Source of the DNA: Paraspadella gotoi
Lineage: Eukaryota; Animalia; Chaetognatha
DNA: 13,233 nt
Direction of reading: 5' to 3'
NCBI GenBank assembly: GCA_051294375.1
Contig: JBJCIZ010000496.1
Span: forward strand, 1-13,233
Shown: one piece after another, positions 907 to 13,233 of the stretch
Position numbering within the stretch: position 1 is the stretch's first letter
How the letters are laid out: every line of letters begins with the position of its first letter
The notes under the pieces: model-generated
Seen by the model: only the letters and a program-made list of their open reading frames with translations
Database searches by the model: none
What the model was told of the DNA's origin: nothing
Program-made: the position numbers and the translations under genes

Positions 907-1074
907 ATTGATGTGATAACGAATTATTGGAATAATAGTAATTGATTGATGTAATAGTAATTGATTATTGATGCAATGATAACCAAATATTGATGCGATG
1001 ATAGTCATTCATTGAGGCGATGATCGTCTTTCATTGATACAATGATAGTTATTCATTGATGCGATGAGTCATTC
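907..1074. repeat. 22-bp degenerate minisatellite (ATTGATGCRATGATAGTYATTC)
   Basis: Units start at 945, 967, 989, 1011, 1033 and 1055, with a decayed copy at 907. Confidence 0.85.
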
Positions 1075-1108
1075 ATCGTAAATAAAACCAACAAATACAT
1101 GTATGAGT

Positions 1109-1196: not shown

Positions 1197-3804
1197 TAAA
1201 GCTGGACAGTTGCTGTAGAGCTTGCGGCCATTTAGAGCGAATTCTAGTGTTACTAAATAAAGCTTTAAAATAAAGTCAAAGCCTTTTGTTTCCTTTTAAT
1301 TTCCGCCACTGACAAAAGAGGTCAAACCACCAATTTCAAATATTTTCCCCAATTGTTTTCTTTAACTGATTTCAATTCTAATTCATGCAATCTTGTTTTT
1401 GATCTGAAATAAAATGTTCTGTCAAAACATTTCTCAATATTGTTTTTATCTTCTTAACAATGTAACAAACTACATTATCAAATAAGAAACTAAGTGAAAC
1501 AGACCTGCAACCAATTTGTATTGAGAACCAAACAATTGAAATGGAAACAAATTGTCTCTGAGGTTGAGTGACTTACTTTCCCTGCGCCACACTTACTCTT
1601 AAGTCAATCGTCACGCTCGCTTAGAACCGCACTACGCAGTTGCCTCGGCTTTCGTCATGCTTTAACGCCACTCAAGACCGTGCCACACTTAACTCGTTTT
1701 TAGACGAATCAGAAGAAGCAGTGACGGAAAAAACAAAGAGAGAGAGGCGACATAATAATATAAAAAGGAAAGAGAGAAGAGAGCAGAGAGCTGACATATA
1801 TTTTGAAAAGGAGAGAGAGATAGTGAGATTCTGAACAGCCCGCTGGCCAGGAAGCGCTTTTTTTGAAAGTGCACTCTTATATATATAAAATATTGTTTCT
1901 GAATATAAAAACAAAACAATGGGAGGCTAGAGGTAATATGAATCATAAACAATTTAAAAGGCCGGCAATGATGAGAAGCCCATTATCTAAATTTTTACGC
2001 TTTTTATGTTTATAACACTTGGAGCTTTATGTTTGCAATGGTTAAAAACAGTCATGGATAACTTGAGCTACGAGCAAAACGACCAACAAGCAACACAAAG
2101 TAAAGGCACGATACATAATATGGGTTACCGTACGGCCCAGAAAGCCGCCAATAAGCTAACATAAATAGACATCAATATGGAACGCATAGTAGTTTTTATA
2201 TAGGAATCCAAGGATTTTTTAGCACCAATGATCGTGATAATGAGCGACGCTCGTCTGAGTATTTGGCAATTTAATCTTTTCTTTTTAAAAAATGAAATCT
2301 TATGGCCAATTTATTTGTGCCAATCTTATTTAACATTTACCGTCCGATTTAGCCCGCGATTTAGGAAAAAACACGCTTGGCCTTGACCAATATTAAAAAC
2401 CCCTAGTTTGCACAAACTACGGCCCGACGAATAAAGCGCGTCCGATCCCATGCTGAGGCATAGAAAAATTAGCAATTTTGGTTATACACCTTTGGTGTAA
2501 GACAGAATTTAAGGTTAAATATTAGAATTGAGAAATTAAGATCAGGGTGATTAAGAAAAAGCAGAAAAGGTTTGCTTTTAGAAAAAAACGAGCCAAAAAA
2601 AGAAATATAAACTGAAAGCGGTGGATTCGTTTTTTTCATTGTACAAATGACTTACATTTAATAGTTATATGTATATGCAGGAGTTTTTTGTCACTTAGTA
2701 ATGAATTTAAAGTCAATAATGAATTATTGAATAATGTTGTTCACAAAAGTTTGTGGTTTGGTTACTGAAATTTTGTGTTACCAGTCTGGACGAGAAGTAT
2801 CGTAGCAAAAGTAAGAACATGGCTTTAATAAGAGTCAACTTAGCAACTGTTGGTCGACATCCTGCCAACAAAATTGAAGAATGCCTCCGACTGAGCCTCT
2901 GGCGATTGGTGGCTTATAAAAATCAGTGATTGAATTAGTAAACCTAGAGGTTTTTATATCACTAATAAAGCCAATTTTTTGATGCCATATCACTGTTTTA
3001 TTTTTTTATATTTCTGTGTGTGTTATAAAAAATTTTTTTTAAAAAATTCTTATAAGACAGGGATATCTTAAAAAGTAATTTTGCTCAAATCAAGGTAATA
3101 ATTTATCGCGTGCATTGGTAATTATACTATGGGGCTGCTCTAGCATAATTAAACCTATAGCAAATCATATATTTAAATAAATATTTTGTATATAATTTTA
3201 TTTTGTAAAGAGAATCTGTGCAGCGTATTTTATCCTCCAGGTATGTAGGGCACACATCAATTTTTTTAAAAATAGTGTACTATTCAATTAGAAAAGGAGC
3301 CACTCTATTTATGAATAAAAACTGGTACTAGACAAATTTTTTCATAGTACCTGCTAAAACACAAGAAGATATGGTAACGATAGTATTGGGCACTGACCGC
3401 TGGTGCACTGGCAGCTTTGTCGGATGCTTGTTGTTGGATCCCGCATAAGAAGTAGTTGCGAATTCTAAATTTTAATAGAACAAAACTTACTGCAGCATTC
3501 GTTTAACTAATAAATTAATTTGGCGCAGAGTCAAATCTCTCATACTTTTAGACACAGTGAAGGGGACTGATGTGAAAGGTGGTGCACTAAAAATTCCTTA
3601 CAAGGAAGAGGTACTGGCTAAAGGGCGTCGTTGGACATCGGAATTTGAATGAACGATTGGTGCAAACCTATTTTTCTTTTAGGCCATGCCGCCGCACTGT
3701 CGTGATTTAAAGTTCTGCGTGAAGATACAAACAACTTTTGGATTATGACAACAACACCTAGTGGGCAACCTTCCATAAAATAAGTTTTTGCAGAAGTGCG
3801 TCAA

Positions 3805-3829
3805 NNNNNNNNNNNNNNNNNNNNNNNNN
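3805..3829. other. Assembly gap (25 N)
   Basis: Run of 25 N. Sequence character changes from gene-dense to non-coding across it. Confidence 0.99.
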
Positions 3830-3975
3830 ATTCAGCTCACAAGATTAGTTCTTTATGAGGTCAAAGCATTTCTCACACAATCGGAGCTTCACTATTTAAG
3901 CTCCTCAGTTCGTTTTATAATAAATTCCCGGAAATCTTTAAAACGGTAAGCTAAATATCCGCAATAGTCCTGCAT
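3830..3975 (-). CDS. Accessory ORF G2, 5' fragment running into the assembly gap; probable paralog of G1
   Basis: U-rich tract plus CATCATTAG (3992), ATG at 3975. Reads MQDYCGYLAYRFKDFREFIIKRTEELK / (I)VKLRLCEKCFDLIK with one A restored, versus G1 FKRRKTDELEGRLPGSVKRCIELMQ. Confidence 0.5.
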
Positions 3976-4041
3976 TATGTTCGAGCAATTCCTAATGATG
4001 AAGCATAATAAATAAACAAAGTAAGTTTAAAATTGAGATAT

Positions 4042-4391
4042 CTATGACAGGATTTTAATCTCTTCCTGTCTTTCCTCGATGAGTTCCTCAATCATCTTGT
4101 AGATTTCATTATAAGTCTCGGCCTTTTCCTTTTTATGAAATTTAAGCATCACGGCCGTTTTTCTCCATCCTACTGCATTACGAACGTCTTCTTCTGCAGC
4201 CCTTTTTAGTTTCAATCTGTAATCCTCGGGAAGTTCTTGAACCATTCCGGATGCCGTTTGATTTTGGCTTTCTGTTCTCTTACGTTGAGGTTTCTTCCGA
4301 AATGTTTATTCTCGATCTTCTCTTTGTTTTGTAAAAGATGCTCCCACTTTGCAGGAATCGTGCGCCGCGCGCCGCCCACCGGATCGGACAT
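4042..4391 (-). CDS. Accessory ORF F2 (about 116 aa; one missing G near 4242), paralog of F1
   Basis: GCTAAT branch-like motif plus TCTTACCAG|TTCAAAATG. The track ORFs 4212-4475 and 4042-4245 join as ...KIKRHPEW|VQELPED..., matching PDWVQ in F1. Confidence 0.75.
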
Positions 4392-4496
4392 TTTGAACTG
4401 GTAAGAATTAGCTTGAAAATAAATTTGATCAAGTAATCGTAACTTCAAGACGATAAATTGATATTTGTTAGCCAATTTGAAGTTTTTGTTATAATT

Positions 4497-4877
4497 TCAC
4501 ATTACAGCAAATCCAACAATTTCAACAGTTTCTTTTGGAGAGATTTTGTCTTTCACTGATTCCAGACTCTCGTGATTGAAAATGCAGCCTCTGCTCAGGT
4601 AAATTTCTTTCCACCTTTCTAATGTCGGAAACTCTTCCTCCAATGCTTTTATTTTTTCGGCAAATTCTCTTACATTTGCTGTGGGATTTTTTGCTCTTTC
4701 CTTGGCGATGGATTCCCGGATTTTCTTGATCTTTGAAGCATGGTCCTGCATTAGTTCGATGCATCTTTTGACGGAACCCGGAAGTCTTCCCTCCAATTCG
4801 TCTGTCTTTCTTCGTTTGAAGGCGCAAAGCTCCAGGTGCTCCCTCGAGTAGATCGTAGATATTAATCCGTTTTGCAT
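4497..4877 (-). CDS. Accessory ORF G1, intact, 126 aa, charged and probably helical; function unknown
   Basis: ATCTGTTTAG acceptor (4891), then ATG at 4877. MQNGLISTIYSREHLELCAFKRRKTDELEGR...VGFAVM-TGA is uninterrupted. Confidence 0.75.
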   Translation of the reverse strand: MQNGLISTIYSREHLELCAFKRRKTDELEGRLPGSVKRCIELMQDHASKIKKIRESIAKERAKNPTANVREFAEKIKALEEEFPTLERWKEIYLSRGCIFNHESLESVKDKISPKETVEIVGFAVM

Positions 4878-4955
4878 TCTAATTCGAAAACTAAACAGAT
4901 ATAGATAATTATCACACAAGTTAATCTACATTATATTGAACGTAATTTATACACT

Positions 4956-5297
4956 TCATTCATGTAAATTTTTTAGAATAGTCTCCTGGTTTTCAATACG
5001 TTCCTGCATCATTTTGATTATGGCTTCGAAAATCTTGGATCTTTTTGGCTTTTCCCTTTTCAGGATCTCCGCCGTTTTCATCCAATCCTTCGTGAGACGA
5101 ATCGTCTTTTCGGCTTCGGCTTCCGGACCCCTGCCCTCGCCCAGGAGGATCCTCTGTACCCAATCAGGTTTATAAGAAATATTTGCTTCTGCTTCACGAA
5201 GCATTACGTCCAAGATCTTCTAATTTATATGTTCGCTTTCTTTCTGGAGTTTTAAACTTCTCCAGTCATCCCATAACCACACGACTTTGTTGGCCAT
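4956..5297 (-). CDS. Accessory ORF F1 (113 codons, one in-frame TAG at 5220-5222), paralog of F2
   Basis: TTTATTTCAG|TTCAG acceptor (5346 or 5341), then AAAATG at 5297. Reads MANKVVWLWDDWRSLKLQKESEHIN*KILDVMLREAEANISYKPDWVQR...KNLHE-TGA. The ungapped match to F2 spans the internal stop. Confidence 0.75.
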
Positions 5298-5381
5298 TTT
5301 CGTCGGGAGAATTAAAATAAGTTCGTTCAATAAGAAAGGTCTGAACTGAAATAAATTTTGTTTATATTAAACAAGGATTAA

Positions 5382-5585
5382 TTAAGAGTTTTTTGTCGAA
5401 TTCTTCATCCGAACTTTTGGTCTTTTGCTTAAGGATAGTGTCTTAACGACCATCTTTTTGCTTTTCAAAAGAATCAAAGACCGTTTCCGCGCTTGGTCTT
5501 CTGGATCGGAAAATGAAACCTTGTGAATTTCATCATAACAAATGCCAAATTTGCCATACATATAACCATTAAATGAGCCATTTTC
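5382..5585 (-). CDS. Accessory ORF or exon E (about 67 codons): either a separate small gene with ATG at 5581 or the last exon of D2
   Basis: CTGAT branch-like motif plus TTTGTTCCATTCATTCAG (5586), followed by GAAAATG. The phase-0 frame ENGSFNGYMYGKFGICYDEIHKVSFSDPEDQARKR... is open to TAA at 5382-5384. Confidence 0.4.
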   Translation of the reverse strand, partial: ENGSFNGYMYGKFGICYDEIHKVSFSDPEDQARKRSLILLKSKKMVVKTLSLSKRPKVRMKNSTKNS

Positions 5586-5616
5586 CTGAATGAATGGAAC
5601 AAATAAATATCAGAAT

Positions 5617-5990
5617 TCAATATTTCAATAATTTGCAAGTCGATTGATAAATATTTGATGAGGCAACTTTAATATTATGATTTTCTTTCGCAATAAGCTC
5701 GTCACTCAGTTCGCAGTTGATCACGGAGAACAAAATCCCGAATGACAGAGTAGATTCTTCCAAAGCTTCTCGCTGCATGTCGGCGTATTTTTCCATTGAT
5801 TCTGTAGGAATACGGCCCATGGGAAGACTTTGTTATCGTCTTTGTGCCACTGCCTCGTTCAACTTCTTTTCTGTTCGTCTTTCCATCGTCCATATTCGAT
5901 CACGAATTCGTCTTTATAGTGCGTCGGGATGTGCTCGAGGAGGATTCGCATGTGGAGCTCTCCTTCGATTTCAACGTAATCTCCAGACAT
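5617..5990 (-). CDS. Accessory ORF D2 (about 124 aa; one frameshift and one in-frame TAA)
   Basis: CCTAAT branch-like motif plus TTGTTTACTTTCAG (6009), then AAAATG. Reads MSGDYVEIEGELHMRILLEHIPTHYKDEFVIEYGRWKDEQK / KKLNEAVAQRR*QSLPMGRIPTESMEKYADMQREALEE...KLLKY-TGA. Confidence 0.6.
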
Positions 5991-6023
5991 TTTAATATAA
6001 ATATCAAACTGAAAGTAAACAAA

Positions 6024-6303
6024 TTAGGCGATTCGAGCGTAAATAAATCCAATTGATGACATAATATCACTTTTCAGCTCTATCTCGCAAGTCATAATGA
6101 TTTCCTTTAGTTTCTCCCTTCTTTCTCCATAATAAATTGTATTAAGAATTCTTTGCTTGTCTCTGACAGATTCAAAGATTCCGCTTGATCCATCTTGATC
6201 ATCGTCTCGTCGTACCAACGATTGTATCTGTCGTAGAACTCGGCCAAATGTTCCATTGGAATAGATCAATCATCATATTGAAGAGAACTCGACGAGATGA
6301 CAT
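6024..6303 (-). CDS. Accessory ORF D1, paralog of D2, with about two frameshifts
   Basis: After TTTCTTTCGTAG (6321): MSSRRVLFNMMID / SIPMEHLAEFYDRYNRWYDETMIKMDQAESL / ...YYGERREKLKEIIMTCEIELKSDIMSSIGFIYARIA-TAA. Similarity to D2 supports the repaired frame. The start codon is uncertain. Confidence 0.55.
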
Positions 6304-6573
6304 CCTTCGTCAGACGTTCTCTACGAAAGAAATGCGGTACTTCATATAAAGGTTCAAGTTGCTAAATAAAAGTGTTATTATTATTTGTTGATTTTTAAAT
6401 CATCACCAGTGTGTGGTTGGATCGTCGCTTCCAATTGAGTTATTCTCCGCGTTAGGTAAGTGATAATTTTCTCGTTACTGAATCGAAGGTGAGTATGAAA
6501 TGCACTGAGATTAATTTGAACGAAAATAGACAAAATTTGATTATTGATAAAAATATCGAGTTATCTTTGTTCA

Positions 6574-6889
6574 TTAAACTACAACGGAGATCTGCAATAG
6601 TTTTCCGCTGACATAATGTGGGTGGAATAATAAGGGATGGAGGTTCAATTCTCCTCCTTGGACAAGGGTGGCGCCGAATGACGTCGAGGTGCGGACATTT
6701 CCACCTCCAACGGACGTGAGTCTTGATGACGACGCCTTATGTAAATTTAGATTCAGTTGAGGCGAGTAGTGTTAATTTATTTACACTTTACTTCTTACTT
6801 AAATTTATTTAACTCACCTTTTTCTCGATTTCTTCGAGACGGTATATGTTCGGAGCGGCTATTTCATTTGAATTCGATCGTCGTGACAT
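6574..6889 (-). CDS. Accessory ORF C, spliced (exon 6889-6818, intron 6817-6736, exon from 6735); 3' structure uncertain
   Basis: Acceptor-like TTTTTAG (6933) or CCATAG (6901) precedes the ATG. MSRRSNSNEIAAPNIYRLEEIEKK ends at a perfect AAG|GTGAGT donor, followed by an AT-rich 82-nt intron and a GC-richer exon open to TAA at 6574-6576. A further candidate exon at 6504-6407 could extend it or join it to ORF D1. Confidence 0.5.
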
Positions 6890-6945
6890 CGTAGCAGCTT
6901 CTATGGTCGAGGATCGAAACTTTATATTCTACCTAAAAATTATTT

Positions 6946-7272
6946 ATCACAACAAAGGACGTTTGACTGATTTTAGAAAATCACTTTATTACATCAAGAA
7001 GTGACTGTTATCACCTTATATCAAAGAATTCGACTGATACAATTATAGTTTTATTAACTATCGGATCACTACACATTGAAGAAGTTTGACTATTACAATG
7101 ACGGATCTATTTTTATTGGATCACTACACGTTGAAGAAGCTTGACTGTCATAATAACAGTTCTATTGTTATCGGATCACTACACATTGAAGAAGCTTGAC
7201 TGTTACAATAACAGTTAAATTCGATAATTTCGTTGTTCGTCGGATCACTGCACATTGAAGAAGTTTGACTGT
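6946..7272. repeat. About 55-bp tandem repeat (core GGATCACTACACATTGAAGAAGYTTGACT), 4 good copies plus about 3 decayed, in the 3' flank of ORF B
   Basis: Copies start at 7062, 7117, 7172 and 7241. Degenerate tcac...gactg copies occur near 6946, 6981 and 7011. Confidence 0.9.
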
Positions 7273-7279
7273 TTCCTGG

Positions 7280-8834
7280 CTAATATGGGAGCCACCCCAG
7301 CCTCTGCTTAGCCGGAATGCGTGGTCGGTGGCGGTCCTCGTCCCTCAGGCGTCTGCGAGAGAGAGACTCGCGAAGGTCTCTCATGACCAGCTCGACGTTG
7401 CGAGTGATCTCGCGTGCGTCCTGCGATTCGCGCCTTGTGGTCCTCGCGCGAGGGTCCGATTCCCATAAGACCTCCTAAAAATAGTATGTGTTTACTGGCA
7501 TTTCTCTATAATAAATTTTTATTGTAATTCAATTTTTACCACTTCTTCGTCTTCGTAGACGTTCAGCGGTGGGTAAAAGGGTCGGCTTCTGATTGGAGTG
7601 CTTGTTGCTGGGGGCAGAAATAGTTCTCGAGGAGGACTTCCCGTAGACGACGGCGGCCGGATCGGGCTCACTACTCGTGGGCGTAGTGGTTGAGTTGCGG
7701 TGGCGCGACCAACCGTTGACGAGGGTGGGGCTGTGACGCGGCCCATTGGAGGAACCACACGCACGTGATCGCGGCCCATTGGTGGAGAGATTGAAGGCAC
7801 TACGTGGTCGCGGCTCATTGAAGGAACCACGCGCACGCGACCGCGGCCTACTAGAGATGGAGAGATTGACGAGGACGGCACCGCAACGCGGCCGCATTGA
7901 AGGAACCACACGCACGCGACCGCGGCCCACTAGAGACGTAGAGATTGACGAGGAAGGCGCCGCAACGCGGCCCATTGAAGGAACCACGCGCACGCGACCG
8001 CGACCCACTGGAGGCGGAGAGATTGACAAGGATGGCGCCGCAACGCGGCCCATTGAAGGAACCACACCGCACGCGACCGCGGCCCACTGGAGGCGGAGAG
8101 ATTGACGAGGATGGCACCGCAACGCGGCCCATTGAAGGAACCACACGCACGCGACCGCGGCCCACTGGAGGCGGAGAGATTGACGAGGATGGCACCGCAA
8201 CGCGGCCCATTGAAGGAACCACACGCACGCGACGCGCCCACTAGAGACGAGAGATTGGCGAGGATGGCACCGCAACGCGGCCCATTGAAGGAACCACACG
8301 CACGCGACGCGGCCCACTGGAGGTGGAGAGATTGACGAGGATGGCGCCGCAACGCGGCCCATTGGAGGAACCACACGCACGCGACCGCGGCCCACTGGAG
8401 GCGGAGAGATTGACGGCGGAGGGGCGGCGAGTCCTCTCCCGGTGGAGCCGGTTCCGGCGTAGATGGCGCCGTATGAGCGCGGCCCATTGAAGGCGGGAAA
8501 GTCGGGACGTCGACTCCTGGTGGCGCCGGTTCTCCTGGAAGGGAGATGGTTCGCTGGGGTTGACGTCGAGCAGGTCGTCGCCGCCATCGCCCTCGCTCGC
8601 TTGGCGGCTTCCTCCTGGTTTTAATATTTTGAAATATTTGTCAACGATTTTCATTTATTAATATATGGACATGTTTCGACTCTTTATTTCGAGTACTTCA
8701 ATGAAGCCGAAAGGATTAGCACAATGGCTATCAAAATAACATTATGCTTTATAAATAAGTATATCTAATGTTTATAGCTCTCGTTCTCTTACTAGAAATA
8801 TTTTGTAGTCGCGGGTGGCCTGCGCGTCCGACAT
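7280..8834 (-). CDS. Accessory ORF B: three-exon Arg/Ser/Pro-rich repeat protein (exons 8834-8793, 8614-7540, 7474-7280)
   Basis: CCACCATG start. Intron 1 GTAAGA...CCAG (8792-8615, 178 nt) and intron 2 GTAAAA...TTTTTAG (7539-7475, 65 nt) are both phase 0 and AT-rich against GC-rich exons. Joins read MSDAQATRDYKIFL|EEAAKRARAMAATT... and ...YEDEEV|EVLWESDPRAR...RIPAKQRLGWLPY-TAG. Small indels break the frame inside the repeat. Confidence 0.75.
7738..8420. repeat. GC-rich 78-bp tandem repeat, about 9 copies, coding MGRVA(A/V)PSSSISPPPVGRGRVRVVPS on the minus strand
   Basis: The cccattg anchor recurs at 7971, 8049, 8128, 8206, 8281 and 8358 (spacings 78, 79, 78, 75, 77), with more diverged copies down to about 7740. 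Confidence 0.97.
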
Positions 8835-8990
8835 GGTGGAATGTTTTTTTTTTTTTTTTGTTTTCTTTTTTGTATTAAGGAAATTGCCCTGGGAAAAAGT
8901 ATCGAACGGAAATAATCAGTAAATTAAACGGATCGATGAAATTATCTTGAACATTGTAATTTGATAGTGTATTCTCTATTTAAAGTTCTT

Positions 8991-9569
8991 TCATATTTTC
9001 CATTTCATGGATTTTTGCGAGAAGGGCGCGATTCCTTTTGTCCTTTTTAATCTTTCGATTTCCTCTCGTAATTTCTCTTTCAATCTTCTTTCTTGCTCGC
9101 ACTGGATATCCTCTCGAAGACGAGCGACTTCTTTCTTCCAAGTTTGAAAGCGTTTTCTTGCTTCTCTTTTCTTACGTTGTTGACGAAGAAATTCGTGTTT
9201 CCTCTCTTTATCCCATTTCTCTTGTAATTCAGCGAAACATTCCTCGCTGGTCGACTTTGTTAAAAATAATTACTTCGTCTTCCTCTGATGACGAAGAGGA
9301 AGATGACGGTGCCCATTTCGATACTTCTAAAATCTCGATCACGTCCTCTGGTTTTACTTCCGCAACTGATGCGGGACTTGATGGTGGAGCAGCTTCCGAT
9401 TCCGGCTGCGACGAAAATGTTGGGGAAGCTGGTGGTGACGACCTTTCTGGTGAAGCAGATGACGAGGATCTTTTTCAGAGGGGTCTTCGACTTCCCTGTG
9501 AGCATGTTGAAACTCGTCAGGGCTTGACAATTCTTCCTCAATTACGATAGTGTCTATGCAATCCGTCAT
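8991..9569 (-). CDS. Accessory ORF A: acidic, Ser/Pro-rich N-half plus charged, probably coiled-coil C-half (about 185-190 aa, two frame breaks)
   Basis: GCCATG start 23 nt after CTCTTTTTCTTTACTCAG. Reads MTDCIDTIVIEEELSSPDEF..., then after a shift in an A-run near 9472 SSSASPERSSPPASPTFSSQPESEAAPP...SSSEEDE, then after a break at 9255-9273 STSEECFAELQEKWDKERKHEFLRQQRKKREARKRFQTWKKEVARLREDIQCEQERRLKEKLREEIERLKR...MKWKI-TGA. Confidence 0.65.
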
Positions 9570-9592
9570 GGCTGAGCGTTAAACAAGTGGCT

Positions 9593-9612
9593 CTGAGTAA
9601 AGAAAAAGAGTA
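9593..9612 (-). promoter_or_regulatory. Strong 3' splice acceptor at the head of the accessory cassette
   Basis: Polypyrimidine tract CTCTTTTTCTTTACT followed by CAG, 23 nt before the ORF A start. This is the position of an env-type subgenomic acceptor after pol. Confidence 0.6.
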
Positions 9613-10109
9613 ACGGTAATGTTTGATACATGTCATAAAGACTTTAATATTGACAGACTAGTGCAATTTTATTCAAATAATTATTCGAATTTCGATGTAA
9701 ACATCATTCGAAAGTTTGATGCATTTTGCGCACTTTTTATAAACAACGGAACAATTGAATATGAGTCCGAATGATGAAATAATACTAACTAACTTAATAA
9801 GTCCCAGACTCGTCTTAACGAATTCTCTTTAAGACAATAGCTTGCTGATAATAACTCGTTATTTGAATTCGCTTGAGTGACTTTTCAGTAAATAAATGAC
9901 CAAGTACTATCCTGGTCAAAAAATTAAATAATAGCAATTTGACTTTAAATAAGGTTTCTGATCAATTCTTTAAAATAATGATCGGGTTGTGTGATGAATT
10001 ATAACATCCAACAATTAGTGGTGAACAAATATTCAAGAGATATTTTCAAATTTGTTTACAGTAATATAAATGGTTTTTTCTCAATTATAGACAAAGCGAA
10101 AAAGATGTT

Positions 10110-11200
10110 TCAAAGGTTCACCTTTTTTCTAATCAATTCCAGTTTGATTAAAGTTTTTACATGCCGACGAATCTCCTTCTTGTTCGGAGTTTTCACGATC
10201 GCTTCGCGTTTGTGAATGTCTTCTCCACTAGTTTTGAAATTCGACCAACTCTCCAAATGTCTCGAGGTGTGTTCTCTTCCTCGATTAGTACGATATCTCC
10301 TGCTTTGAGGTCATCGGAAGAAGTTGTCCATTTCTTTCGACAGCGAAGAGTCGTGAGGTACTCTTGTTTCCAACGGATCCAGAATCTGTCTGCCGTATCG
10401 CGGACGATTTTCCAAGATGCTCGTAAAGTGTCGCCAACTGTAGGAGTGTAAGGAAGGAGAGTTAAAGCTGTAGAGGCATGTAAATAAGGGTATAAAAAAT
10501 TTTCAGGACTCAATGCTATGATTTCGTTCGGATTTGCTGGAGCCTGAGTAATTGGTCTTCTGTTTAATATAGCAGAGATTTCACATAAAATAGTAACGAA
10601 AGTATCAAGGTCAGGTTCCTTGGGTAAGGAAGTTGTTATATGCTTTTTTGTACTTTTTACGAGACGCTCCCATACTCCCCCCCAATGAGGGGTGTGCGGA
10701 GGGCCGAAGTCCCACCTGATATCGTTCGAGGCGATGAACTCTGTAAACTTTTCATCTTGACGAATTGTTTTCAGTTGCCTTTTTAATTCGTTGTCGATGC
10801 CTCTGAAATTTGTTCCATTATCCGAAACAAGTCGCTCCAAACCTGGGAAATGTGAGCGGAACCTTATCAATGCTGATATAACTGACATACTTGACATGTC
10901 TTTTAAAACTTCGAATACTACGGCTCTTGTAGTCATGCAAGTAAGAAGTAGAACATGTTTATTATTGTAACTTTCCGCGTTTTTCTTTTGTTGGGACCGA
11001 GACATCGCTCCCGTGGTTTTTAAAGGGATGGCTGTTCACTCGAATTCGGGGGAGGTCGCTTTTTGTGGGGGTTTGGGTCTTGTGTGCCTTTTGGCATTGT
11101 AGACATTTCCTATGAGTTATCCCGTTTGCTCGTCTCCTTATAGCAAATTTCTTTTAGGAGTGAAGTGTGCGAGAACCGCCCGCATGTTTCAATGTCATGG
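10110..11200 (-). CDS. Integrase: HHCC remnant, DDE core (clean ORF 10193-11005) and DUF5641-type C-terminus
   Basis: H....HAG near 11180-11205, CLQCQK, DLP..RV...PF.TTG.D just upstream of 11005, TCMTTRAVVFE, SDNGTNF, PHWGGVWERLVKSTK, LNRRPI, FWIRWKQEYLTTL, GDIVLI, WRVGRI. After a frameshift near 10232 the frame reads SGEDIHKREAIVKTPNKKEIRRHVKTLIKLELIRKKVNL with TGA at 10110-10112, the expected end of this domain. Confidence 0.93.
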
Positions 11201-11729
11201 AATGCTCTAATTATAGAAATTTACTTTTTCATCATTTTTTGTTAAGACCAGGGTGTGTTTGTGTTTCGGATGATATCTTTTTGGCTTTGCCAAGTCTGGC
11301 CCGTGCTCTATACTTTCTCGATAATGACGTGGACCTTTGTTAGCGAAATTCTTTGTTGAAATTTTAGTTTGAGTCTCTTTTTGTTCGGAGACAAAATACC
11401 ATTTTAATAATTCTTTGATTTCTTTTCAATTGAGATCGTGAATAGCTTTATTAATTTTTCCTCGCGTGGTTTGTTTCGGGTAAGTAAAATGTTTTAACTG
11501 TTGTAGCCTATTTCCCTTCTTTTTTGTGTTAAAATCCAGTTCTTAGTATTTTAGACGGAGGAGGTGTTGGTACGCAAGTGCATTGCGGGCTACATTCTCG
11601 GGGGTGGTTGCAGTACTCGTCGGATCGGCGGCCAAATGGACTTCTTGTTGGTATCTTCGTGAGCGTTTGGAAGTCTCCTTTCTGGTAGGATTTGATGGGT
11701 ATTTTTGACGGTTCGGCCTTGCTTTTGGT

Positions 11730-12430
11730 TGTGAAGCCAGCGGGACTCTGTGGAAGAATGGTGCATTTACTTGTCATTCGCGTCGGGCCCTAGAGGTGAA
11801 GCGGCGGGGATTTTCCTTTCTTGCGCGGTGCCGCTCTGTATGGAGTAATTTCGTTAGTTGTTTTGAGGTCTATGTGTCGAAGGTGTTTAATCTTTTAGTA
11901 TATTTTATGCATTTAATACTGTATTCGTCTGTGGCATCTTGTTTGCTAGAAATTTTTCCAGACTCTCTATTTATATCTTGAGTGAGCTGCAGTCTTGCTG
12001 CATTTTAATTCTAACGAGGCATATCTCTTCAGGTGATCCTCTTGTTTCTGGTGATCATGTTCTTTGCTTTGCAATGGAACACATGGAGATTTTCGCTCGT
12101 AATAAGGACATAACATTTCGTCTTATTTGTTATCTTTTTTTAAATATGCGACGGGGGTTGCCGTAACGTAGACGATTGCATCTGCAAAGAATAATTATTG
12201 CGTCTTGCAAGTTTAGGCCCGATATGGATGTCCATGAGGAAATGCCATCTTTTCAGCTTTGTCCATCTCTCGTCTCCATTTGGTCAAATTTTGAAAGTAT
12301 TCTGATTTCTGTCCAGTTGTTGCTCATTTTGTTGCTTTTTGGAAATGAACCTTCCTTTTAATATGTATGGTGACACCCAGTGATCATGCGCTTGCTACTA
12401 GTTTCAAAAATTCGGCTGGTATTGCTCCTT
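11730..12430 (-). pseudogene. Pao 'Peptidase_A17' / RNase H region, heavily indel-disrupted
   Basis: Remnants in the expected order: EFLKLVASA.D.LG..SPYI, IIFADA...YG..VAYL, LLRAK.S.V.P, MPRLEL.AA, TD..TVL, NPA...SR, P.WL. Read by eye with frame repair. Confidence 0.8.
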
Positions 12431-12910
12431 TTTTGCGCGTTTTCGTTTATAGGACAAAATAATCTTTCTCAGTATTGAACCTTCCTAAATTCTTACTTTT
12501 TGGTTTCTGTCGCCATCTTGGGCTTCGGTGCGGGAAGCATTTCGGCATTTTCGGGTCATGCGAGTTCGTTCAGTTTCCTGAGATCGATTGGAGCACGTCA
12601 GTCTGAGATAGGATTCGTCTTTGAGGCCCGGGAGTGCTGAACTCTTTAAACTTGCAGTTCAAGCTCGCGCTTGAGTGCTGTCGTGAGTCTATTCTCAGCG
12701 TTTGTGCTTCCTGGGGGTATTGAGTGAGTCCATAATGTCATGTAAGTTGGAGGAAAATAGAAGAAGCTTAGTGGGACTTGGTCCTTTTTCTGTTTCATGT
12801 GATATTTAATGACCGTTTGCGACAGCCGGCGCTACCAGAGCCGCCAAAATCGTGACATGTAGATTGGTGGGTCTCAGCTTTGTTGCTTTAGTCGGCTTAC
12901 CAAAAAACTC

Positions 12911-13228
12911 TTAAAGGCACGCTCGATCGGCGGGGTTCGTTTCTATGTTGATGAAAGGCCTTTTTATGTCCCGCAGGACGAGTGTTCTTTTTTTCCTCGA
13001 ACCTCGATTTACGCCCAGTAAAGGAGTCAGGTTGTCAGGGCCAGCTATTAAATGCTGGTTTAAAAATGTACCTCGGGTTTTCGAGGCTGCGTCCTGACAA
13101 ATTCGGAATTTTCCGGGTTTGTCGGGGCGCGTGACAATGTGCAATGGAGTATAATATTCTGGCAATTCGCCATTTAAATTTTCAATTTCTACTTTACTTG
13201 AGAAACCGACCTCCATGCATTCGCGCAT
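12911..13228 (-). CDS. Reverse transcriptase N-terminal part (BEL/Pao type); continues in broken frames to about 12600
   Basis: YYTPLHIV..PDKPGKFRICQDAASK..G.FLN..L..GPD.L..L and DIK..F..I...P.DR match the BEL/Pao RT pattern Y.PH..V......TK.R.VFDAS......SLN..L..GP.L and DI.K.F.QI...DR. Confidence 0.9.
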   Translation of the reverse strand: MRECMEVGFSSKVEIENLNGELPEYYTPLHIVTRPDKPGKFRICQDAASKTRGTFLNQHLIAGPDNLTPLLGVNRGSRKKRTLVLRDIKRPFINIETNPADRACL

Positions 13229-13233
13229 TGTTT

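What the first reader, a model, noticed from the sequence alone, without database searches (positions are those of the whole stretch)
3830..9612. BEL/Pao retrotransposon followed by a cassette of about 10 non-env accessory genes
Seen: after the pol stop (10110) come co-oriented ORFs A, B, C, D1, D2, E, F1, G1, F2 and G2, packed head to tail, mostly 35-160 nt from stop to next start. None has an evident signal peptide or transmembrane segment. Established: BEL/Pao elements normally encode one gag-pol ORF, and a few add a single env-like region (C. elegans Cer7/Cer13, Ascaris Tas, Drosophila roo). Inference: this is a 'complex' belpaovirus-like element with a virus-style accessory region, possibly for host-defence evasion or RNA handling. 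I do not recognise any of the proteins and know no description of this layout, but I could not search.
Basis: partly seen in the sequence, partly recalled or inferred. Interest (0 to 1): 0.9.

Follow-up and report, generated by a model that had tools for sequence, protein, structure and literature searches.

The report
Retrotransposon carrying ten unknown small genes
The end of a BEL/Pao-type jumping gene runs directly into about ten small reading frames for which our searches found no relatives, and diverged sister copies keep pieces of them; they likely ride inside the element and would be made from spliced RNAs, like the accessory genes of complex retroviruses.

Summary
Largely confirmed; mechanism inferred. 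A BEL/Pao-type pol (integrase plus DUF5641) ends at 10110 on the minus strand. About ten GC-richer reading frames follow, separated by AT-rich spacers. Only G1 is unbroken in this indel-rich copy.

Contigs from three studies bridge the pol end and ORF A. One diverged contig (integrase 83%) keeps the pol-A order and spacing. No polypurine tract or LTR start follows pol. All 19 listed blocks from 77-83%-like contigs fall in the frames, in the same order. The cassette continues past the N gap, so no 3' LTR is seen.

New here: two in-phase GT-AG introns, and a YAG acceptor before 10 of 10 starts (a stricter motif test failed). F1/F2 are paralogues; G1/G2 is unsupported. The G1 and F1/F2 searches found no relatives or telling folds.

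Best reading: a complex-retrovirus-like BEL/Pao clade with spliced accessory genes, one likely exporting unspliced RNA. LTRs, target-site duplication, expression and function are untested.

The parts
10110..13233 (-). BEL/Pao-type pol, 3' part: RT start (12911-13231), zinc-binding region (about 11000-11420), integrase core (10193-11035) and C-terminal piece to the stop at 10110; heavily frameshifted in this copy
   Evidence: Pfam rve E 2e-5 (below its cut-off) and DUF5641 E 2e-18; 124 hits up to 46%; tblastn with the canonical Pao polyprotein of L001; zinc region 0 of 1000 shuffles
9570..10109 (-). pol-to-A spacer, 540 nt, GC 0.29; no PPT+TG; AATAAA at 9673, acceptor at about 9593; holds an ATG-less hydrophobic frame (9676-9828)
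   Evidence: bridged by contigs X3 rec 3, X4 rec 9 and X8 rec 26
8991..9569 (-). ORF A: acidic and Ser-rich first half, K/R/E-rich second half; broken in this copy; candidate nuclear RNA-handling factor (inferred)
   Evidence: block 9354-9463 matched by the diverged integrase-bearing contig X3 rec 4
7280..8620 (-). Gene B: exon with a 78-nt (26-codon) Ser/Pro/Arg-type repeat array (7736-8415), intron 7475-7539, Arg-rich last exon 7280-7474
   Evidence: the reading frame of the repeat was not resolved
7032..7272 (.). 55-nt tandem repeat (3-4 copies) in the B-to-C spacer
   Evidence: folds no better than shuffles (z +1.26)
6574..6889 (-). Gene C: short first exon, intron 6736-6817, second exon whose frame and end are uncertain
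6024..6358 (-). ORF D1, broken; opens right after an acceptor at 6362; one contig class lacks 6319-6415
   Evidence: diverged contigs match about 6185-6260; joint 6318-6416
5617..5990 (-). ORF D2, broken; probable paralogue of D1
   Evidence: 1 of 1000 shuffles
5382..5585 (-). ORF E, broken
   Evidence: diverged contigs match about 5515-5577
4956..5297 (-). ORF F1, one in-frame stop in this copy; C-terminal part predicted as a two-helix hairpin; the piece most often matched by diverged contigs
   Evidence: pLDDT 79; four contig depth classes at 5196
4497..4877 (-). ORF G1, 126 aa, unbroken, predicted all-helical at low confidence, no relatives found
4042..4391 (-). ORF F2, broken; paralogue of F1
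   Evidence: (z 9.1, 0 of 1000)
3830..3975 (-). ORF G2, broken and cut by the gap; kinship to G1 not shown
3804..3829 (.). N gap; the cassette goes on for at least 470-578 nt inside it
   Evidence: X3 rec 1 and X8 rec 18 lay only in part

Best explanation
This is a BEL/Pao-type retrotransposon pol followed directly by a cassette of about ten small genes that likely lies inside the element and would be expressed from spliced sub-genomic RNAs, with at least one product predicted to help the unspliced genomic RNA leave the nucleus. SHOWN: pol identity; pol joined to ORF A in three studies; the same pol-A order in one diverged contig; conservation confined to the frames; two in-phase GT-AG introns present in the DNA; F1/F2 duplication. 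INFERRED step 1: pol and cassette are copied as one RNA by Gag-Pol, giving an element of roughly 12 kb or more, with a few copies in each of at least four subfamilies. INFERRED step 2: each gene is opened by splicing onto the YAG in front of it, either from one upstream donor (my slight preference, about 55:45) or by a trans-spliced leader. INFERRED step 3: the introns survive in a multi-copy family, so the packaged RNA is unspliced and needs an export helper, as Cer1 uses CERV; the basic half of A or the Arg-rich tail of B are the candidates. INFERRED step 4, the weakest: the small duplicated helical proteins (D, F, G) bind host proteins and blunt silencing.
For: LINKAGE: X4 rec 9 spans 8372-10277, X3 rec 3 spans 9238-10277 and X8 rec 26 spans 9437-10277 (three studies). 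X3 rec 4 matches integrase with 126 differences over 729 letters and A with 25 over 110, with 763 letters between against 774. NO LTR START: no purine tract plus TG lies between pol and the gap, apart from two look-alikes inside gene C. The canonical Pao control L001 has one gag-pol frame with a purine tract plus TGT about 50-60 nt after its stop (read by eye). DEPTH (X3, per contig): integrase 346.6, cassette 344.4 and 334.4. At F1 the classes are 344.4, 434.2, 217.6 and 86.4, summing to 1082.6, against 1460 at integrase. CODING CONSTRAINT: 19 of 19 listed diverged blocks are at least 75% coding; merged, 10 of 10 places, reached by 715 of 100000 random placements. Matches end at stops and starts (4494, 4955, 5299). 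9 of 18 listed substitutions in cassette frames are synonymous (p 0.011 against all changes). SPLICING: YAG lies within 50 nt of 10 of 10 starts (369 of 20000 shuffles; 5 of 10 on the opposite strand); two phase-0 introns of 65 and 82 nt. STRAND BIAS: the minus strand is A-rich in pol and cassette but not in the flank. PRECEDENT: Cer1 CERV (PMC10309623, abstract).
Against: No LTR, PBS, PPT or target-site duplication is in the window, and no own genome is held. No listed contig spans pol to D-G; only the window joins them. Only one diverged contig is shown to link pol with a cassette gene. Other integrase-like contigs turn unlike at 10137 (loose ends), and one (X3 rec 5) runs about 1.4 kb past pol with no listed cassette match. 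Depths do not all agree: 266.4 at the pol-A junction in X3, and integrase 44 against cassette 29-39 in X4. The tool warns that depth is no copy number. The stricter acceptor motif stood before only 3 of 10 starts (1036 of 5000 shuffles), and the looser test was run after that failure. The synonymous excess is not significant against transitions only (p 0.10) and rests on 40 rows shown of 586. Blocks from one contig are not independent, and AT-rich spacers may align worse anyway. The A-rich strand could come from K/E/R-rich coding alone. Steps 3 and 4 have no direct support.
Confidence: 0.55

Rival explanations
1. Same element, but the cassette works as an operon: one long transcript is cut by polyadenylation and spliced-leader trans-splicing into single-gene mRNAs, as in host operons. 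This is the alternative branch of step 2 rather than a different object.
For: The six distal spacers are 31-105 nt and AT-rich, and each ends near a YAG. AATAAA lies 80, 44 and 57 nt upstream of the acceptors of A, B and C (noticed after the fact). Most starts carry their own ATG just after the acceptor.
Against: No AATAAA in the C-D1 spacer or the six distal spacers, only TATAAA twice and ATTAAA once; AATAAA is common in AT-rich DNA. The host is unidentified, so trans-splicing is not known to exist in it. Internal polyadenylation would cut the genomic RNA.
Confidence: 0.3
2. The spacers are ordinary introns and the ten frames are exons of two to four larger genes.
For: Every start has an acceptor upstream and two introns are evident. 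G1 ends with a GTAATG in phase with the acceptor before F2. D1 opens after its acceptor without an in-frame ATG in this copy.
Against: 5 of 9 cassette ends have no GT-purine donor in their last 45 nt. Diverged contigs match up to stop codons and ATGs. Most frames have an ATG right after the acceptor.
Confidence: 0.15
3. The cassette is a separate unit (a host gene cluster or another element) that lies beside a truncated pol and was duplicated with it by segmental duplication.
For: No LTR is seen, retained introns are typical of DNA-level copying, and the left flank is a patchwork of repeats. Some integrase-like contigs turn unlike right after pol.
Against: pol runs to a normal C-terminus with no LTR after it. 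A contig 17% diverged in integrase keeps pol-A order and spacing. At least four depth classes of diverged cassette contigs keep the gene order.
Confidence: 0.12
4. The region is decayed or non-coding 3' filler of the element, and the frames are chance.
For: Most frames are broken in the window, and no relatives were found for G1 or F1/F2.
Against: GC step between frames and spacers, conservation confined to frames, F1/F2 protein-level paralogy without a DNA-level match, and in-phase introns.
Confidence: 0.03

Closest known systems
Belpaoviridae / Semotivirus (ICTV profile PMC8742986, whole text read)
   Same: RT lies before integrase, and the integrase carries DUF5641 as nearly all its listed hits do.
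   Different: [quoted passage not shown] Here 9.4 kb run from the RT start to the gap with about ten extra genes, and more lies unseen. The integrase groups with five unnamed metagenome proteins (100/99) apart from all named animal hits (long branch, no outgroup).
env-carrying BEL/Pao elements: roo and mosquito Chuviridae-like glycoprotein elements (PMC13524379, passages); Atlas virus (PMC9094657, search listing only); Tas, Cer7 and Cer13 (env status recalled)
   Same: Extra coding sequence in the sense direction between pol and the 3' end.
   Different: Those carry one glycoprotein. Here there are many small charged proteins with no transmembrane stretch in the named frames. I recall that Cer7 was described as complex-retrovirus-like with a small extra ORF; I did not see that paper (one search did not list it).
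Cer1 CERV of C. elegans (PMC10309623, abstract)
   Same: An LTR element with splice sites whose genomic RNA must stay unspliced, and a novel accessory protein made from a spliced mRNA.
   Different: Ty3/gypsy type (recalled), one accessory protein, function shown by experiment. No sequence link was tested here.
Additional ORFs after pol: bdelloid ORF3s (PMC5408684, abstract), plant aORFs and Retand (PMC7264820 and PMC11963269, abstracts), Burro, Terminons and fish foamy-like ERVs (PMC6431247, passages)
   Same: Long pol-to-LTR regions with extra ORFs; Retand also has tandem repeats there (2.9-6.6 kb).
   Different: As far as I read them, these have one or a few ORFs, often enzymes or antisense, and none is described as BEL/Pao. 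Many-ORF cases are Penelope-like Terminons or true retroviruses.
MDG1-group sORF1 and sORF2 (bioRxiv 10.1101/2025.03.14.642691, passages; supplements not seen)
   Same: Small non-env accessory ORFs in an LTR element, one of them nuclear.
   Different: Two ORFs upstream of gag. sORF2 is a transmembrane fusogen-like protein, and no named frame here has such a stretch.

Membership tests
Belpaoviridae (BEL/Pao) | Integrase downstream of RT in pol | tested here: met
   RT start 12920-13228 (E 2e-9) and integrase 10229-10969 (E 1e-42) against the L001 polyprotein
Belpaoviridae (BEL/Pao) | RNase H between RT and integrase | tested here: inconclusive
   Best frame 186 of 1000 shuffles; the stretch is badly frameshifted and poorly covered by contigs
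Belpaoviridae (BEL/Pao) | Pao-type integrase with C-terminal DUF5641 (association recalled) | tested here: met
   DUF5641 E 1.9e-18; nearly all of the 120 listed hits carry it
Belpaoviridae (BEL/Pao) | Placement inside the family on a pol tree | tested here: inconclusive
   Integrase-only tree of 55 rows (54 drawn from P0001-P0040, 17 named hits and L001, after a 190-residue filter); no Ty3/gypsy outgroup; long branch
Belpaoviridae (BEL/Pao) | Paired LTRs, PBS, PPT and target-site duplication | not testable with these tools
   The 5' end lies beyond 13233 and the 3' end in the N gap; no genome held
Belpaoviridae as described by ICTV | One to three genes, 4.2-10 kb | tested here: not met
   About ten extra genes and 9.4 kb from the RT start alone. 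It is therefore not filed as a canonical member; it works like one by its pol.
env-carrying BEL/Pao elements | Long glycoprotein ORF with signal peptide and transmembrane anchor after pol | tested here: not met
   None in 3830-10110; the part inside the gap is unseen
Complex-retrovirus-like organisation | Accessory proteins made from spliced sub-genomic mRNAs | not testable with these tools
   Only sequence signals; all laid runs are contigs
Complex-retrovirus-like organisation | Rev- or CERV-like export factor and its RNA element | not tested
   A is K/R-rich (0.23); the two spacers folded are no more structured than shuffles
sORF2/FAST-like fusogens | Short ORF with a single transmembrane helix and a basic tail | tested here: inconclusive
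   Absent from the named frames; two other frames reach hydropathy 1.86 and 1.91 without an ATG in this copy

The most novel reading that the evidence does not exclude
A whole clade of BEL/Pao elements has become a complex virus-like genome. It carries an operon-like array of ten or more intron-bearing orphan genes, opened one by one by host splicing (possibly spliced-leader trans-splicing). The array includes its own export factor and a duplicating set of small proteins that counter host silencing.
Probability: 0.3. Interest if true: 0.87.

Novelty: new variant of a known kind. Interest (0 to 1): 0.7.

Why it matters
BEL/Pao elements are described with at most three genes and 10 kb, and their replication is called poorly understood (PMC8742986). 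A family with about ten conserved, spliced, non-env genes would move complex-retrovirus organisation into this group. It would show how an LTR element keeps introns while copying through RNA. It would also supply a set of orphan proteins in which to look for new export or anti-silencing factors. The host has several sequenced samples, so the main claims can be settled with existing kinds of data.

Tried and rejected
OWN GENOME: none held.

PROTEIN RELATIVES
- G1: 0 of 18 candidates at E<=10, lengths 69-221 only; 0 in 1.84 billion representatives.
- F1+F2 profile: 0 of 8 candidates; one PDB row at E 1.
- Pfam on 22 pieces gave only the integrase families; the other rows were E>=0.04. PHROGs on 11 pieces gave only E>=0.048.
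- Atlas first hits were 0.85 and 0.88, leads only.
- A, B, C, D and E were scanned only against family libraries, in pieces. They were not searched in the large protein sets.

FOLDS
- G1 model pLDDT 52.7; no Foldseek match at E<=0.001.
- F1 hairpin: generic coiled-coil matches only, best Z 9.7, below the level the tool asks for helices.

LOCI
- Nothing confirmed in viral or prokaryote contigs.
It gave only L001 (38%, canonical layout).

RNA
- No RNA holder was listed. X8 covers spacers and behaves like DNA. This is no evidence on expression.
- Rfam 0 matches, tRNA 0. Spacer folds were no better than shuffles.

TESTS THAT FAILED OR WERE UNINFORMATIVE
- Strict acceptor motif, G1/G2 kinship, RNase H detection.
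- Codon-position test on the 78-nt repeat: 6 of 9 units kept, confounded by indels.
- The PPT regex also missed the tract in the control L001 (seen by eye), so its blank in the window is weak by itself.

OTHER
- Holes in contig cover at 11366-11679 and in the left flank prove nothing.
- The host taxon was not determined.
- Ten literature searches listed no BEL/Pao element with this layout. Subscription journals, Repbase and Dfam are not covered, and I saw none of the supplements, including the 7,861 element sequences of PMC3118150.


Full report
WHAT IS IN THE WINDOW. No whole genome is held for this window. The work therefore rests on the window, on contigs of public runs laid on it, and on database searches. 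The right end is the 3' part of a retrotransposon pol on the minus strand. The frame 10193-11035 hits rve (E 2e-5, below the Pfam cut-off) and DUF5641 (E 2e-18). It has 124 relatives at up to 46% identity, nearly all of the listed ones with DUF5641. A canonical single-ORF Pao polyprotein from metagenome locus L001 matches an RT start at 12920-13228 and the integrase, and the zinc-binding region by shuffle test. RNase H did not reach significance. The C-terminal piece ends at 10110 and is matched by P0002. On an integrase tree the window groups with five unnamed proteins (100/99), away from named fish, mollusc, insect and Trichuris hits. The branch is long and there is no outgroup. The host is unidentified; an invertebrate is likely, since the family is metazoan.

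THE CASSETTE. Between 9569 and the N gap lie ten coding-like pieces on the same strand. Their GC is 0.35-0.65, against 0.15-0.33 in the spacers and introns. Six of nine gaps between genes are 31-105 nt; the others are 215-390 nt, and pol-to-A is 540 nt. Only G1 is unbroken. Contigs of four runs differ from the window by single-base indels at full or most of their depth (12 of 160 rows shown), so many breaks are likely errors or private changes. With X at each break, F1 and F2 align at z 9.1 (0 of 1000 shuffles) and D1 and D2 at 1 of 1000 among 45 pairs. G1 and G2 do not align significantly (137 of 2000). No named frame has a transmembrane-like window, but two other frames do.

IS IT PART OF THE ELEMENT? 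Nine runs of one organism in three studies hold the stretch; four were laid. X4 rec 9 (8372-10277), X3 rec 3 (9238-10277) and X8 rec 26 (9437-10277) bridge the pol stop, the spacer and A. One of these studies may be the window's own source. X3 rec 4 is a diverged relative: integrase with 126 differences in 729 letters, then 763 unlike letters (774 in the window), then 110 letters of A with 25 differences. No purine tract plus TG follows pol. That regex also missed the tract that is visible about 50-60 nt after the stop in L001, so this blank is weak alone.

Per-contig depths in X3 are 346.6 for the exact integrase contig and 344.4 and 334.4 for the cassette, but 266.4 at the junction. Many other contigs sit at 86-92 or 49-51. 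If 86 is single copy, this subfamily has about three to four copies (inference; the tool warns that depth is no copy number). In X4 the integrase is 44 and the cassette 29-39. X3 rec 1 and X8 rec 18 run 470-578 letters past 3831 without fitting the left flank. So the gap hides more cassette, and the 3' LTR is not in view. Against this reading: no listed contig spans pol to D-G, several integrase-like contigs turn unlike at 10137, and X3 rec 5 shows no listed cassette match in 1.4 kb after pol (tables were cut).

IS IT KEPT AS CODING SEQUENCE? Seven diverged contigs or depth classes give 19 matched blocks in the listed rows (some block lengths are minimal estimates from joints, and not all rows were shown). 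All 19 are at least 75% inside the frames. Merged, 10 of 10 places are, which random placement reaches in 715 of 100000 trials. The order is colinear in the listed joints, and several matches end at stops or starts. At F1 four classes add up to depth 1082.6, against 1460 at integrase. This suggests that much of the clade carries the cassette (inference). Blocks were seen in A, D1, E, F1, G1 and F2, and none was listed in B, C, D2 or G2. Among listed substitutions between window and majority contigs, 9 of 18 in cassette frames are synonymous: p 0.011 against all changes and 0.10 against transitions only.

HOW IT WOULD BE EXPRESSED. Two GT-AG introns join open frames in phase: 7475-7539 in B and 6736-6817 in C. 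X4 rec 8 (6416-7893) carries both in DNA. A YAG lies within 50 nt upstream of 10 of 10 starts (369 of 20000 shuffles; 5 of 10 on the opposite strand). A stricter motif tried first was met in only 3 of 10 (1036 of 5000), so this signal is suggestive, not proven. Five of nine gene ends lack a donor, which argues against one multi-exon gene. AATAAA precedes the acceptors of A, B and C by 44-80 nt but is absent from the other spacers.

I infer sub-genomic mRNAs made by splicing onto each acceptor, from an upstream donor or a trans-spliced leader. If the copies arose through RNA, retained introns mean the packaged RNA is unspliced. Cer1 solves that with CERV, a novel protein from a spliced mRNA (PMC10309623, abstract). 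The basic half of A (K+R 0.23 overall) and the Arg-rich tail of B are the candidates here. An anti-silencing role for the duplicated helical proteins is a guess from their size, duplication and lack of relatives.

WHAT THE PROTEINS ARE. G1 has no relative in either large protein set and the F1/F2 profile none among 8 candidates. Family libraries gave nothing for the cassette pieces, and Atlas hits were under 0.9. G1 folds at low confidence as helices with no match. The F1 C-terminal part is a confident two-helix hairpin with generic matches only. A to E were not searched in the large sets.

COMPARISON AND NOVELTY. ICTV describes one to three genes and 4.2-10 kb (PMC8742986, whole text). Extra ORFs after pol are known in LTR elements: PMC6431247 (passages), PMC5408684, PMC11963269 and PMC7264820 (abstracts). 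In BEL/Pao the passages I read name only env-like genes (PMC13524379; PMC3118150). Two small accessory ORFs occur in MDG1 elements (bioRxiv 10.1101/2025.03.14.642691, passages). Ten searches listed nothing with this layout; the library lacks most subscription papers and Repbase, and supplements were not read. My recollection that Cer7 was called complex-retrovirus-like comes from no call. Earlier notes of this scan show single extra ORFs in Gypsy elements of other genomes (unchecked) and nothing for this place or sequence.

VERDICT. A new variant of a known kind. The cassette is real, joined to pol and conserved as coding sequence across subfamilies. I put about 0.8 on it lying inside the element and about 0.55 on the full reading with spliced expression and an export helper. 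Interest 0.7.

Noticed in passing
window 3157-3800: High-depth repeat just left of the gap (X3 bins 848-2845, against about 340 in the cassette). It could be an LTR with many solo copies or an unrelated repeat; no contig was shown to link it to the cassette.
   Followed up: partly
window 1564-1740: Very high-depth repeat (X3 bin about 19,000) with many loose ends at 1691 and 1733, next to GA-rich tracts.
   Followed up: no
window 8647-8730: A short stretch in the A-B spacer, holding two AATAAA and a TATA-like run on the minus strand, is shared by many otherwise unlike contigs in all four runs (loose ends and a depth spike). It may be a conserved cis element or a small repeat; a poly-T run at 8834-8877 adds to the spike.
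   Followed up: no
window 6319-6415: One contig class in all four runs lacks this stretch, which holds the acceptor and start of D1 (X3 depth 91.9). It looks like a copy-specific deletion.
   Followed up: partly
window 11050-12900: pol is far more frameshifted and less well matched by contigs here than in the integrase core (0 differences over 722 letters), which suggests a low-accuracy stretch of the assembly.
   Followed up: partly
window 922-1076: 19-nt and 22-nt tandem repeats in the left flank.
   Followed up: no
L001 3-5318 and 6150-6806: A canonical single-ORF Pao element is followed, about 830 nt after its stop, by another open frame that may be the start of a second gag, as in a tandem pair sharing an LTR.
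   Followed up: no
P0001-P0004, P0007: Five unnamed metagenome integrases form a supported group with the window's. Their contigs are short and could not be read here; longer ones would show whether the cassette extends to other hosts.
   Followed up: partly
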